Assembly: GCF_006345805.1 (NCBI RefSeq)
Contig: NC_043026.1
Location: 11,408,001 to 11,472,000 of the forward strand
Source: Octopus sinensis
Lineage: Eukaryota
Direction of reading: 5' to 3'
DNA: 64,000 nucleotides
Part shown: one piece after another, positions 30,357-40,884 of the stretch
How the letters are laid out: each line of letters begins with the position of its first letter
Numbering within the stretch: position 1 is the first letter of the stretch
The notes under the pieces: model-generated
What the model saw: the letters and a program-made list of their open reading frames with translations, nothing else
Told to the model about the DNA's origin: nothing
Database searches by the model: none
Program-made: the position numbers and the translations under genes

Positions 30357-31553
30357 TCAAATGGCTTCTTCCCTGTGTGAATACATGTGTTTGGTTAAAG
30401 TGCTATGAAAAGAGAATGATTTACCACAGATATCACAGTGATATGGCTTCTCTCCTGTGTGAATACGTTTGTGATAATTTAAATTCCCACTTTGAGAGAA
30501 TAGTTTACCACAGATATCACAGTGAAATGGCTTCTCCCCAGTATGAATACGCTTGTGGACAGTTAAACTGCTACTTAGAGAGAATGATGTACCACAGATA
30601 TCACAGTTAAATGGCTTCTCACCAGTATGAACACGTTTGTGATGAGTTAAATTCCCACTTGCAGAGAATGATTTACCACAGATATCGCAGTGGAATGGCC
30701 TCTCTCCAGTATGAATACGCTTGTGAGGTATTAAGGCACTTTGAAAAGAGAATGATATTCCGCAGATATCACAGTGAAACGGTTTCTCCCCTGTATGAAT
30801 ACGCTTGTGAGATATTAAAGCACTTCCAACAGGGAATGATTTACCACAGGTATCGCATTCAAATGGCTTCTCTCCTGTATGAATACGTTTGTGATAAGTT
30901 AAACAGCTACTTTGAGAGAATGATTTACCACAGATATCACAGTGATATGGTTTTTCTCCTGTATGAGTAAGTTTGTGTTTAGTCAAGGCAAAATTTATGG
31001 AAAATGATTTACCACAGATATCGCAATGATGGGGTTTTTCTCCAGTGTGAACGCGTTTGTGTTGAGTTAATTGACAGGTATGAGAAAACGATATACCACA
31101 GATATCACAGTGAAATGGTTTTTCTCCAGTATGGCTTCGTTTGTGTACAACTAAGCAGCCACTTTGAGTGAATGATTTACCACAAATATCACAACAATAT
31201 GGTTTCTTTCTTGTATGAATACGTTTGTGTTTGTTTAAAGCACCACTTTGAGAGAATGATTTACCACAGATATCACAGTGATATGGCTTCTCTCCTGTAT
31301 GAATACGTTTATGGAGTGTTAAGAAATATTTTCTTGAGAATGATTTACCACAGATATCACAGTGATGTGGCTTCTCTCCAGTATGAATACGTTTATGTTT
31401 ACTTAAAGCACCACTTTGAGAAAATGATTTACCACAGATATCACAGTGATAGGATGTTTTCAGTTTCTCTTCCTTTATATCACTGGAAAAACCAATGCTT
31501 CCAATCTGTAATTTAGATTCAAACTTATTCTCACATAATTCATTTTCCATCAT
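30357..31553 (-). CDS. Poly-C2H2 zinc-finger protein (ZNF-B1), 13 fingers, 398 aa
   Basis: Same [10 protein letters not shown] leader as ZNF-A; ends by frameshift ([11 protein letters not shown]). Confidence 0.92.
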
Positions 31554-32416
31554 TGTTCTTTCCTCACTACAATTTCCAGGTGTTTATCTTCTTAACTTTT
31601 ATATATTTTATTGCTAATAAATATTTATACTACTGTGATCTTTGCTGATATATCATGGACGTTGCAAATCCCTTTATAAATCCACTGAAGTTCGTTTCAG
31701 ATGCAAAATAATCTTGGACACATTCCAGACAGTCAAGAAAGCAGTTGTTGTTATCAATCTGAGTTCAGGAGAAAATGTTTGGCTGTAATATTCCAAAGAT
31801 TTATATAAGCAGAGTTATGTGTGTTCTGCATAAGATTTTCTTTTGAGTCTTTAAACAAGGATATTGATGATGTATACCATTCTTAGATGCCAATGTCATT
31901 TGTTATTCTGAAACAGTAGAGAAAAAAACAGAATAAGATATAGCAGACACTTAAAATAAAGCAGTAGAAATTCTAGAATATTTCTTATATTATAATTGAA
32001 CTGTTTCCCTCTATTTTCAAGATGTAGATAAATAAATGGGTGTGTGGTAACGAAATTTATTTTCTAACCACGTGGTCTTGATTTCAATCCCTCTTTGTGC
32101 AACTCACTTCTGCTTTGGGCAACAAGTTAACCAAAGCCTTGTGTGTGGATTTGGTAAACAGCATCAGTGTGGAAACTTATGTGTATGTATGTTTATGTAT
32201 GTGTGTGTGTATGTACATACATACATCATACATGTATGTATATATCTAAATATATATAAAACTCAACTTGTGTCTGTGCATGTATCTGTGTGAATCGCAG
32301 TAAACATTGTAGAAATTCAGCAAAGAAATGAATTTTCGGCATGTAGCCTAAAGGGGTTTTTGTATTAATATATATATATATGTATGTAAATATATATATA
32401 TATATATATATATATA

Positions 32417-37535: not shown

Positions 37536-39687
37536 CTAGCAAAGATAGCTGGCATTGCTCATGACACACGGAACTGAACGATTAGACATTTCTTTTATAT
37601 TTTCTCTAATGAACTGGAATACTTACCGTTTGAATTTCATCAAAATTCCAGATTAAGAATTTTATCGACTAGTCACGACTAGCTAGTGCGGATGCGCGCA
37701 CTGGGACCATTCTTCTTTAAATAGTACCCTAATAAAATCGTTATACACGCCACCTGAAAGGTATTCGTCCAAAATTTTAGCTTTAAAACATCCAGTTGGC
37801 TTATTAAAAAAAAACTGGCGACGATAGTTAAAAGTACATAGTTTTTACACATGAGTTGTTATGTCTAAAGTTGGTGGAGAACAGAATTAATATTATTGTC
37901 TGACAAGCAACATCAAACGTTTTACAATAAACATATCCAAATACCTTTACAAAAATATTTCTATTATTATATCTTACCGGTAATGATACATAAATCTGGG
38001 TTTATAAATGAAATATCTTCAATTACAATAGACACGTGCTTCCACTGACAGAAAACAATAGAAATTGGCTTTCACACTAGAAATGACAAAACCTGACTAG
38101 GAAACAAAAACGAGGGAACGAAATTAGTTTCTATTTATAAGCGCCTACAAAATTATATATGTATTATTTCGAAAACTGTTATTTTGAAATATAAAAACTG
38201 TATAAAACTTTACTTAAAATACGAACACAGGGCAATTCTATACATTTTCTCCGCCGACAATATCCGATCGGCTGAGTCGTGTCGGAAGGGACAATAAAAC
38301 TCAGTGCTATAATTCTGAATATGTTTCTGAAGAACAATGAAATATCGATCTAGCTTTACAGAAGCTCAAAAAAAAAAAAAAAGACATAAATATCATTCCC
38401 ATTTTAACTGTTTCTCAAAGTTAAAGAATGGATACAGACGGTGACTGTCCTAATTTTTAGTTTGTTTCGTTTTATCCATATCGGTGTTTCAAGTGGTGCC
38501 GTGAAATTTTAGTCCGAGTTGAATGGACATCATGAAATATACTGATTAGCCACAAGAAAAATAGATTAAAAATAGAAAATACATGGAGAAATACAAATAA
38601 GAATTTTAGTCGGCTGTGGGAAAATAATTACTGCTTTTATTGATTCATTGTATAATATAAGTAGTATTAAATATATAGTCCATGATATATATATACCAGG
38701 CGGCGAGCTGGCAGAAAAGTTAGCACGCCGGGCGAAATACGTAGCCGTATTTCGTCTGCCGTTACGTTCTGAGTTCAAATTCCGTCGAGGTCGACTTTGC
38801 CTTTCATCCTTTCGGCGTTGATTCAATAAGTACCAGTTACGCACTGCGGTCGATGTAATCGACTTAATCCGTGTGTCTGTCCTTGTTTGTCCTCTCTGTG
38901 TTTAGCCCCTCGTGGGTAGTAAAGAAATAGCTATATATATATATATATACTTACACCATCCTGTACAAGATGTCGGGCGGGTTATGGACTGACGTGGTCT
39001 GAACAGTCAGCTTTACCCCAGAAAGCATAATGATATGGCTTTTACCTTGTTTGAATACGTGTGTGCATAGTTAATTTACCTTTTGCAGAGAATGATTTAC
39101 AGTGATATCAAAGTGATTTGGTTTCTCCCATTTATAAATACTTTCATGTTTGGTTAAATTGCTACTTAGAGAGATAGATTTACCACAGTTATCACAGTGA
39201 TATCGTTTTCCACCTGTGTGAATGTTTGTGGTTGGTTAAATTGCTACTTTGAGAGAAAAATTTATCACAGTGATATGGTTTTTCACCTGTGTGAATATGT
39301 CTGTGGTTGGTTAAATTTTACTGTGAGAGAATGATTAACCACAGATATCACAGTGATATGGTTTTCCACCTGTGTGAATATGTTTGTGGTTGATTAAATT
39401 TTACTGTGAGAGAATGATTTACCACAGATATCACAGTGATATGGTTTTCCACCCGTGTGAATATGTCTGTGGTTGGTTAAATTTTACTGTGAGAGAATGA
39501 TTTACCAGAGATATCACAGTGATATGGTTTCTCCCAAGTATGAAAACATTTGTGATCAGCTGAATTCTCACTTCCAGAGAATCATTTACCTTAGAAATCA
39601 CATTGAAATGGCTTCTTCCCTGTGTGAATACATTTGTGTTTGGTTAAAGTGCTATGAAGAGAGAATGATTTACCGCAAATATCACAT

Positions 39688-40884
39688 TCAAATGGCTTCT
39701 TCCCTGTGTGAATACATGTGTTTGGTTAAAGTGCTATGATAAGAGAATGATTTACCACAGATATCACAGTGATATGGTTTCTCTCCTGTGTGAATACGTT
39801 TGTGATAATTTAAATTCCCACTTTGAGAGAATAGTTTACCACAGATATCACAGTGAAATGGCTTCTCCCCAGTATGAATACGCTTGTGGACAGTTAAACT
39901 GCTACTTAGAGAGAATGATGTACCACAGATATCACAGTTAAATGGCTTCTCACCAGTATGAACACGTTTGTGATGAGTTAAATTCCCACTTGCAGAGAAT
40001 GATTTACCACAGATATCGCAGTGGAATGGCCTCTCTCCAGTATGAATACGCTTGTGAGGTATTAAGGCACTTTGAAAAGAGAATGATATTCCGCAGATAT
40101 CACAGTGAAACGGTTTCTCCCCTGTATGAATACGCTTGTGAGATATTAAAGCACTTCCAACAGGGAATGATTTACCACAGGTATCGCATTCAAATGGCTT
40201 CTCTCCTGTATGAATACGTTTGTGATAAGTTAAACAGCTACTTTGAGAGAATGATTTACCACAGATATCACAGTGATATGGTTTTTCTCCTGTATGAGTA
40301 AGTTTGTGTTTAGTCAAGGCAAAATTTATGGAAAATGATTTACCACAGATATCGCAATGATAGGGTTTTTCTCCAGTGTGAACGCGTTTGTGTTGAGTTA
40401 ATTGACAGGTATGAGAAAACGATATACCACAGATATCACAGTGAAATGGTTTTTCTCCAGTATGGCTTCGTTTGTGTACAACTAAGCAGCCACTTTGAGT
40501 GAATGATTTACCACAAATATCACAACAATATGGTTTCTTTCTTGTATGAATACGTTTGTGTTTGGTTAAAGCACCACTTTGAGAGAATGATTTACCACAG
40601 ATATCACAGTGATATGGCTTCTCTCCTGTATGAATACGTTTATGGAGTGTTAAGAAATATTTTCTTGAGAATGATTTACCACAGATATCACAGTGATGTG
40701 GCTTCTCTCCAGTATGAATACGTTTGTGTTTACTTAAAGCACCACTTTGAGAAAATGATTTACCACAGATATCACAGTGATAGGATGTTTTCATTTTCTC
40801 TTCCTTTATATCACTGGAAAAACCAATGCTTCCAATCTGTAATTTAGATTCAAACTTATTCTCACATAATTCATTTTCCATCAT
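39688..40884 (-). CDS. Poly-C2H2 zinc-finger protein (ZNF-B2), near-identical paralogue of ZNF-B1
   Basis: 398 aa with about four substitutions versus B1 and the same terminal frameshift. Confidence 0.92.

What the first reader, a model, noticed from the sequence alone, without database searches (positions are those of the whole stretch)
30357..40884. ZNF-B1/B2 look like chimeras made by unequal crossover between ZNF-A and ZNF-C1 finger arrays
Seen: B genes share promoter, intron, 5'UTR, the [10 protein letters not shown] leader and early fingers ([22 protein letters not shown]) with ZNF-A. Their fingers 7-13 are colinear with ZNF-C1 fingers 4-10 ([37 protein letters not shown]), and they share C1's degenerate tail and downstream flank. 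Inference: the duplication breakpoints lie inside the finger arrays, so the duplication created a new finger combination under the A promoter, which then duplicated again.
Basis: partly seen in the sequence, partly recalled or inferred. Interest (0 to 1): 0.72.

Follow-up and report, generated by a model that had tools for sequence, protein, structure and literature searches.

The report
Hybrid zinc-finger genes from unequal crossover
Two neighbouring zinc-finger genes, in what is likely an octopus genome, join the front half of one gene family to the back half of another; they likely arose when misaligned chromosomes crossed over inside the finger repeats, a known kind of accident that here likely gave a new DNA-reading combination.

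Summary
Confirmed, with corrections. B1 and B2 are 13-finger C2H2 genes, 0.5% apart. Their promoter, exon 1, intron and leader are about 99% identical to gene A's, and fingers 1-5 are A/D-type. Fingers 7-13 and the decayed tail follow C1 in register. Paralogues C2 and C3 show that C1's arrangement is the older one, so B is the hybrid. The switch maps to about 36 bp in finger 7.

Corrections: (1) B's front half is itself shuffled, and fingers 4-5 are closest to D, a gene outside the window. (3) One duplication cannot explain the ages: the intergenic copies differ by 1.0-1.3%, but B and C1 differ by about 7% at silent finger sites and 12% in an adjacent dead finger. An older crossover followed by recent homogenising exchanges fits better.

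B and C1 differ mostly in the recognition helices (22 amino-acid-changing, 0 silent), which suggests positive selection on both lineages. Public contigs show both halves and a spliced B-type 5' end, but none listed spans the junction. That there are two real B copies is probable, not proven.

The parts
47196..47264 (-). B1 exon 1 (non-coding, inferred) inside a cluster-wide conserved promoter block (about 47090-47400); splice donor GTAAGA at 47195
   Evidence: Block lies upstream of a same-strand finger array in 14 of 16 other-gene hits; its long matches in the genome search are all in this cluster; donor present in 15 of 15 aligned copies; start position inferred only
41239..47195 (-). B1 intron 1, repeat-rich; acceptor AG at 41240-41239
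   Evidence: RNA-type contigs stop at 41239 and 41241; depth 0 at 41336-41459 in 3 of 4 runs
41587..42957 (.). Insertion with about 290-bp inverted ends (MITE-like; label from recall), present only in the B1 intron copy
   Evidence: 41654-41940 vs 42927-42626 at 89.7%; absent from the other two copies
39688..40884 (-). ZNF-B1 ORF, 398 aa: 34-aa leader plus 13 C2H2 fingers; a 2-nt shift after finger 13 ends the frame
   Evidence: Pfam shows only zinc-finger families above their cut-offs
40279..40782 (-). B1 fingers 1-6, A/D-type half (f1=A1/D1, f2-3=A8-9, f4-5=D2-3, f6 helix unique)
40240..40275 (-). Inferred crossover interval in B1 finger 7, after the A-type first codon and before the C-type helix
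   Evidence: codon-level comparison; mosaic painting puts the switch between mid-finger 6 and the start of finger 7 depending on the penalty
39691..40278 (-). B1 fingers 7-13, colinear with C1 fingers 4-10
   Evidence: 37 differences in 504 nt for f7-12
38955..39692 (-). B1 degenerate finger tail: out-of-frame finger 14, dead finger X, 83-nt repeats, last unit homologous to C2 finger 12
37978..38046 (-). B2 exon 1 (inferred), 99% identical to those of A and B1
   Evidence: one B2-type RNA contig has 69 letters beyond exon 2, letters not seen
32420..35790 (.). B2-intron-specific insertions (LINE-like fragments, label from recall, plus AT microsatellites); the flanking intron relic is 5-7% diverged from the other two copies
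30357..31553 (-). ZNF-B2 ORF, 398 aa, 6 differences from B1 in 1197 nt; equivalent crossover interval 30944-30909
29550..30361 (-). B2 degenerate finger tail
28567..28635 (-). A exon 1 (inferred); intron runs to the acceptor at 26040
22629..25685 (-). ZNF-A ORF, 35 fingers; 5'-parent family; its 3' flank is unrelated to that of B and C1
49420..50298 (-). ZNF-C1 ORF, 10 fingers; 3'-parent; degenerate tail continues to about 48166
60706..61734 (-). ZNF-C2 ORF; outgroup colinear with C1 fingers 1-5, sharing 5' non-coding DNA and the last tail finger
25504..30944 (.). Repeat unit 1: A finger 1, A 5' region, B2 tail, B2 C-type fingers
30945..40275 (.). Repeat unit 2: B2 A-type half, B2 5' region, B1 tail, B1 C-type fingers (offset 9331 over the genes)
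40276..50019 (.). Repeat unit 3: B1 A-type half, B1 5' region, C1 tail, C1 fingers 10 to 4

Best explanation
B1 and B2 carry an A-type promoter, leader and fingers 1-6 joined to C1-type fingers 7-13 and tail, likely because an unequal crossover inside finger 7 duplicated the DNA between head-to-tail C1 and A-type genes.

Steps. (1) Shown: three homologous intergenic units whose outer boundaries fall inside finger arrays. (2) Inferred: the 84-bp finger repeat let an A/D-type array pair in frame with C1 finger 4; the product is C1-B-A. (3) Inferred: this is the older event (about 7-12% neutral divergence). Later duplication, deletion or conversion events made the intergenic copies about 99% identical and left two nearly identical B copies. 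(4) Shown: B and C1 now differ mainly in the recognition helices. Inferred: positive selection on both lineages. (5) Partly shown: B is spliced and transcribed. Predicted: it is a DNA-binding protein with a target unlike A's or C1's; the target is unknown.
For: Dot-plot diagonals. Nearest-finger table and finger tree: support 96-100 for B1, B4, B5 with A/D and for B8, B9, B11, B12, B13 with C. Mosaic painting gives one A/D-to-C switch at all three penalties.

Polarity: C1 is colinear with C2 over fingers 1-5 and with C3 over fingers 1-4 and 6, which spans the point where B joins. C1's 5' non-coding DNA matches C2 and C3; the tail's last finger matches C2.12; A, D and E lack this tail.

Genome searches (40 candidates scored each) found no better parent: B8-11 gives C1 92%, next 83%; B5-6 gives D 86%.

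Two ages: 8/120 silent sites and 7/56 dead-finger sites against 37/2854 in flanks; B2-intron relic 17/240 against 30/2862.

Selection: helix pN about 0.20 against pS 0.07, omega 2.7-4.2, p=0.0002-0.011. The differences are not enriched for variants found in other cluster fingers (4 of 23 vs 41% expected).

Real and expressed: no N gap in 304 kb. Exact B-specific contigs on C-type fingers are listed in 3 of 4 DNA runs and on A-type fingers 3-6 in 3 of 4. All 4 RNA-type runs have exact contigs on B fingers 9-10, and one has a B2-type 5' contig ending at the acceptor.
Against: No listed contig bridges finger 6 to finger 7 or links the two halves (tables were cut). B's 5' half is not colinear with A beyond finger 1, so the true 5' parent no longer exists in this form. 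The order of the later events cannot be fixed.

The selection test rests on only about 8 silent changes. Four of them sit in the helix leucine codon; against that local rate the excess is not significant (22/112 vs 4/40, p=0.12). For other close finger pairs in the cluster, contact-site pN only equals pS (0.126 vs 0.116, 46 pairs, capped at 9 mismatches). In finger 8, 7 of 9 changes are on the C1 side.

B2-private upstream letters at 31819, 31964 and 32071 were not seen in any DNA run covering them. B1-B2 differences are therefore at the level of polymorphism or consensus error. No sister genome could be compared.
Confidence: 0.75

Rival explanations
1. The hybrid is real but single: B1 and B2 are two haplotypes of one gene written in tandem by the assembler, or a copy-number variant in this individual.
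For: B1-B2 divergence is 0.5% in the ORF and about 1% in flanks, an allelic level. The middle unit looks like a hybrid of the outer two, which a false duplication also predicts. Several B2-private letters are missing from four other runs. In run X3, B-specific contig depth is only 1.2-1.4 times an A-specific one.
Against: No gap in the scaffold. The middle unit has about 3.4 kb of its own insertions and a relic 5-7% from both other copies. In X1 and X2, B-specific contigs are about twice as deep as A- or D-specific ones (107-128 vs 54; 108-114 vs 52; the tool warns that depth is no copy number). X3 has an exact piece over the B2-specific deletion junction, just under the 31-letter bridging rule.
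Confidence: 0.2
2. One recent crossover (age about 1%) made B, and the finger DNA then diverged much faster than the flanks through selection and repeat-linked mutation; no later homogenisation is needed.
For: All three intergenic copies are about equally close (1.0-1.3%). B1 finger 1 and leader are near A at a similar level. Helix changes are nearly all amino-acid-changing.
Against: Silent sites (8/120) and a non-coding dead finger (7/56) are also 5-10 times more diverged than flanks. The differences are not imported from other cluster fingers. A more diverged intron relic survives in unit 2.
Confidence: 0.2
3. B is the ancestral gene; A and C1 are the hybrids, made when outer copies of a B tandem array recombined with a long A-type array and a C2-type gene.
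For: The topology alone is symmetric. C1 can be painted as C2 fingers 1-4 plus B fingers 7-12. A shares fingers with C2 (A28-29 with C2.9-10).
Against: B7-8 are themselves C-family fingers 4-5, equally close to C1 and C2. The older paralogue C3 follows C1's order through finger 6. The tail ends in a C2.12 homologue. It needs two hybrid-forming deletions instead of one duplication.
Confidence: 0.07
4. The 3' half came into an A-type duplicate by long gene conversion from C1, not by a crossover that duplicated the interval.
For: Conversion occurs here: D has a 72%-identical promoter but a 99%-identical exon-2 tract.
Against: The C1-like tract does not end after the fingers. It continues through the tail into the next gene's promoter and intron, so the whole interval is duplicated.
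Confidence: 0.05

Closest known systems
Chimeric duplicate genes from unequal crossing-over between tandem paralogues, e.g. CYP11B1/CYP11B2 (PMC2923798; abstract start seen in search listing)
   Same: A 5' parent supplies the promoter and a 3' parent supplies the business end; the hybrid sits between both intact parents.
   Different: Here the recombining homology is the 84-bp finger repeat, so unrelated arrays can join in frame at any finger. The event is old enough to have diverged and been re-duplicated.
Vertebrate poly-zinc-finger (KRAB-ZNF) cluster evolution: Emerson and Thomas 2009 (PMC2604467, passages); Kauzlaric 2017 (PMC5363842, passages)
   Same: Tandem clusters, finger gain and loss attributed to recombination, short conversions among paralogues, excess change at DNA-contacting residues.
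   Different: No KRAB, SCAN or BTB domain here. The passages seen describe finger gain, loss and repetition; they do not map an inter-gene hybrid with both parents. The words 'chimer' and 'unequal' (PMC2604467) and 'chimer' and 'hybrid' (PMC5363842) have 0 hits.
Mouse Chr4 KZFP cluster expansion by non-allelic recombination (Bruno 2025, PMC12575710; passages)
   Same: Recent segmental duplications expand a young finger cluster.
   Different: There the breakpoints are placed in ERVs and LINEs, giving chimeric transposons; here the breakpoint is in the coding finger array.
Cephalopod C2H2 expansions (PMC12513265, passages; PMC10547256, passages)
   Same: Lineage-specific tandem C2H2 families in octopus; predicted transposon binding for octopus fingers as a class.
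   Different: PMC12513265 has 0 hits for 'recombination' and 'chimer' in its main text and PMC10547256 has 0 for 'chimer'; the positive-selection test seen in the latter was on zebrafish. Supplements were not read.

Membership tests
Chimeric duplicate by unequal crossover (NAHR) | 5' part most like one parent and 3' part most like another, with a single switch | tested here: met
   one A/D-to-C switch, although the 5' half is internally shuffled
Chimeric duplicate by unequal crossover (NAHR) | Hybrid lies between the two parents, same strand, in the order 3'-donor, hybrid, 5'-donor | tested here: met
   transcription order C1, B1, B2, A, all minus strand
Chimeric duplicate by unequal crossover (NAHR) | Whole interval between the parents is duplicated | tested here: met
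   three homologous units at 1.0-1.3% in their main blocks
Chimeric duplicate by unequal crossover (NAHR) | Switch falls in a tract of identity between the parents | tested here: met
   codons 1-12 of B finger 7 are identical in A9, C1.4 and C2.4
Chimeric duplicate by unequal crossover (NAHR) | Parents' arrangements are ancestral | tested here: met
   within-cluster outgroups C2, C3, E; no species outgroup
Chimeric duplicate by unequal crossover (NAHR) | Uniform divergence across the duplicated unit (single event) | tested here: not met
   arrays 7-12% against flanks 1.3%; lowers the single-event claim, not the mechanism
Chimeric duplicate by unequal crossover (NAHR) | Junction seen on independent molecules | tested here: inconclusive
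   no listed contig bridges finger 6 to 7; both halves are present
Chimeric duplicate by unequal crossover (NAHR) | Pre-duplication haplotype (C1 next to A) in a relative | not testable with these tools
   no related genome is held; protein searches returned no orthologue
C2H2 (Kruppel-type) poly-zinc-finger protein | Tandem CxxC...HxxxH fingers with TGEKP linkers | tested here: met
   (PF00096, PF13465)
KRAB-ZNF | KRAB or other N-terminal effector domain | tested here: not met
   no such Pfam hit in B1 or C1; leader is 34 aa
Transposon-targeting ZNF | Binds and represses a transposon sequence | not testable with these tools
   no binding data; class-level prediction only in PMC10547256

The most novel reading that the evidence does not exclude
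Crossovers inside finger arrays are a routine, still-active way this octopus cluster builds new transcription factors. They splice finger blocks of unrelated genes in frame under a shared promoter type; selection then retunes the recognition helices while the DNA between genes is homogenised. B would be a worked example that may still vary in copy number, with D, A/C2 and g181 as further mosaics.
Probability: 0.3. Interest if true: 0.62.

Novelty: new member of a known kind. Interest (0 to 1): 0.42.

Why it matters
Octopus C2H2 expansions are well known, but how new finger combinations arise in them is little described: seven literature searches returned no paper mapping an inter-gene finger hybrid in a cephalopod. 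This locus keeps both parent families, outgroups and a breakpoint of about 36 bp, so it allows a direct test of whether in-array recombination gives a new binding specificity. It also warns that gene-level trees and flank-based dating mislead in these clusters. The mechanism itself is textbook, and no function or target is known, so the interest is moderate.

Tried and rejected
Protein searches for orthologues failed. The first 60 aa gave 248 hits, mostly generic finger matches, with a few Octopus proteins among the highest identities. The full protein gave 353 hits; the 120 listed were all at 59% identity or less. Exact look-up found 0 of 8 proteins. The organism is therefore only likely an octopus.

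My first finger pattern was too narrow and was replaced. The microsatellite mask was too greedy; its numbers are discarded in favour. One Fisher test carries a wrong label (the input was 22/1713); one search is the one cited.

In one search the last two codons compared in B finger 13 lie after the 2-nt shift. They add about 3.5 amino-acid-changing and 0.5 silent differences to the scaffold class; helix counts are unaffected.

A first candidate donor at 46844 was set aside for the one at 47195, which is conserved in 15 of 15 copies. The former may be an alternative.

Micro-conversion from other cluster fingers as the source of B/C1 differences was tested and not supported, within the 304 kb only.

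The missing contig across finger 6/7 is not evidence of absence, because common finger words break contigs. The 2-nt insertion seen at 30385 in two runs may come from finger 14 laid on finger 13, so it does not show an intact allele. The scan's own earlier findings returned nothing nearby. No structure or complex prediction was run, as it would not bear on the claim.
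Full report
Setting. The window is G000:C30:11408001-11472000 in a 2.72-Gb genome. It is likely an octopus: Octopus proteins are among the highest-identity hits to the first 60 residues, and one covers 98% of that stretch at 58% identity; this is indirect. I added 240 kb of flanks. The 304 kb has no N and holds 30 C2H2 arrays. In the window, five genes lie head to tail on the minus strand, in transcription order C2, C1, B1, B2, A. Outside it are C3 (about 66.5 kb), D (about -18 kb, inverted, A-type leader) and E (about -31 kb).

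Observation. The dot plot shows three copies of the DNA between C1 and A. Their main blocks differ at 30/2862, 37/2854 and 37/2854 sites. The outer ends fall inside finger arrays: at A finger 1 on one side and C1 finger 4 on the other. Among 425 fingers (mean between-array distance 25/84 nt, 1st percentile 13), the nearest non-B neighbours are: B1 to A1 (3 mismatches), B2 to A8 (4), B3 to A9 (5), B4 to D2 (3), B5 to D3 (9), B6 none under 14, B7 to C1.4 (5), B8 to C2.5 (5) then C1.5 (9), B9 to C1.6 (6), B10 to C1.7 (7), B11 to C1.8 (3), B12 to C1.9 (7). A tree of 102 fingers agrees for most; B3 is unresolved, B7 and B10 fall only in wider clades, and B6 joins the A1/D1/B1 clade. Genome searches, each scoring 40 candidates, found no better parent and no further near-identical promoter copy.

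Gene structure. RNA-type contigs stop at an acceptor at 41239, and depth is zero just inside the intron in 3 of 4 runs. A block about 6 kb upstream lies in front of a same-strand array in 14 of 16 other-gene hits and carries a donor conserved in 15 of 15 aligned copies. One B2-type contig has 69 letters beyond exon 2, which equals the distance from a TCAGT to that donor. The letters were not shown and the TCAGT is not conserved in paralogues, so the start is inferred.

Breakpoint and polarity. Painting B as a mosaic gives one switch from A/D-type to C-type at all three penalties. B finger 6 has a non-C linker and finger 7 starts with the A-type codon; codons 1-12 are identical in A9, C1.4 and C2.4; the helix is C-type. 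The crossover therefore maps to about 40275-40240. C1 follows C2 over fingers 1-5 and C3 over fingers 1-4 and 6. It shares 5' non-coding DNA with both, and the tail ends in a C2.12 homologue that A, D and E lack. The A/B intron stays homologous to E past the point where D's match stops. So the C1 and A-type arrangements are ancestral and B is the hybrid. D looks like a recipient of conversion: promoter 72%, exon-2 tract 99%.

Two ages. B7-12 and C1.4-9 differ at 37/504 nt. Silent sites differ at about 8/120 and the dead finger after the ORF at 7/56, against 37/2854 in the flanks (p=3e-4 and 1e-5). A relic in the B2 intron, beside its private insertions, is 17/240 from the A copy against 30/2862 elsewhere. 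A single recent event does not fit. I infer an older crossover, then duplication, deletion or conversion events that homogenised the intergenic DNA and left B1 and B2 0.5% apart. Their order is not resolved.

Selection. Between B and C1, the recognition-helix codons show 22 amino-acid-changing and 0 silent differences, pN about 0.20 against pS 0.07; omega is 2.7-4.2, p=0.0002-0.011. The variants are not enriched among other cluster fingers. Against this: silent counts are small, a helix-local silent rate gives p=0.12, changes fall on both lineages (7 of 9 in finger 8 are on C1's side), and other close pairs show contact pN about equal to pS. I put positive selection at about 60%.

Real and expressed? 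Four DNA runs were laid on B2, all as contigs. Exact B-specific pieces are listed for C-type fingers in X1, X2 and X3, and for A-type fingers 3-6 in the same three; none is listed for X14 in the cut table. No listed piece bridges fingers 6 and 7. B-specific contigs are about twice as deep as A- or D-specific ones in X1 and X2 but only 1.2-1.4 times in X3; this is a weak hint of two copies. B2-private letters at three upstream sites were absent wherever covered. Four RNA-type runs (three guessed RNA, one unlabelled) all have exact contigs on B fingers 9-10. The 5' contigs are B-type in X6 and X9, A-type in X10 and mixed in X5. A full-length hybrid transcript is not shown.

Comparison. The mechanism is ordinary non-allelic recombination giving a chimeric duplicate, as for CYP11B1/B2 (listing). 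Finger gain and loss, conversion and helix selection are described for vertebrate poly-finger genes (passages of PMC2604467 and PMC5363842). Duplications with transposon breakpoints are described in mouse (passages of PMC12575710). The cephalopod C2H2 papers I searched do not mention chimeras in their main text; supplements were not read. B has no effector domain and is not a KRAB-ZNF.

Verdict. A real and unusually well-preserved hybrid, of a known kind. Confidence is 0.75 for the full account and higher for the hybrid origin alone; interest 0.42.

Noticed in passing
G000:C30 about 11386.2-11390.6 kb (gene D; window-relative -21.7 to -17.4 kb; loci L019-L020): Inverted 7-finger gene whose promoter is 72% identical to A/B but whose exon-2 start (543 bp) is 99% identical and whose first three fingers are A/B-type; looks like a gene-conversion recipient.
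   Followed up: partly
window-relative about 180-181 kb (L033): Array g181 is another mosaic: fingers 4-5 match g161 f9-10 and fingers 6-10 match g178 f2-6.
   Followed up: no
window-relative 135.9-140.9 kb (L029): A 53-finger array made largely of runs of near-identical fingers, about 31 of one type, minisatellite-like.
   Followed up: no
window 23118-23330 vs 60838-61050: A fingers 28-29 (and 3, 6) match C2 fingers 9-10 at 92%, another exchange between the A and C families.
   Followed up: partly
window 22629-25685: Gene A has internal finger duplications (for example 11-12 vs 30-31, 23-25 vs 32-33, 4 vs 8).
   Followed up: no
window 48166-49360, 38955-39530, 29550-30200: The decayed finger tail has become an 83-nt minisatellite with different copy numbers in C1, B1 and B2; the switch from old to recent B/C1 similarity falls in it.
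   Followed up: partly
window-relative about 96.3 kb and 106.6 kb (L025, L026): Two copies of the cluster promoter and exon-1 block have no finger array within 15 kb downstream in my finder; possibly dead genes.
   Followed up: no
window 512-1711, 10199-11408, 15615-16064: Two histone H2A/H2B pairs in inverted orientation (94% identical) and an H3 gene interrupt the zinc-finger cluster; names from recall of the translations.
   Followed up: no
window 40885-41238: The inferred spliced 5'UTR of B1 (about 420 nt) holds six upstream ATGs with short frames, which could dampen translation.
   Followed up: no
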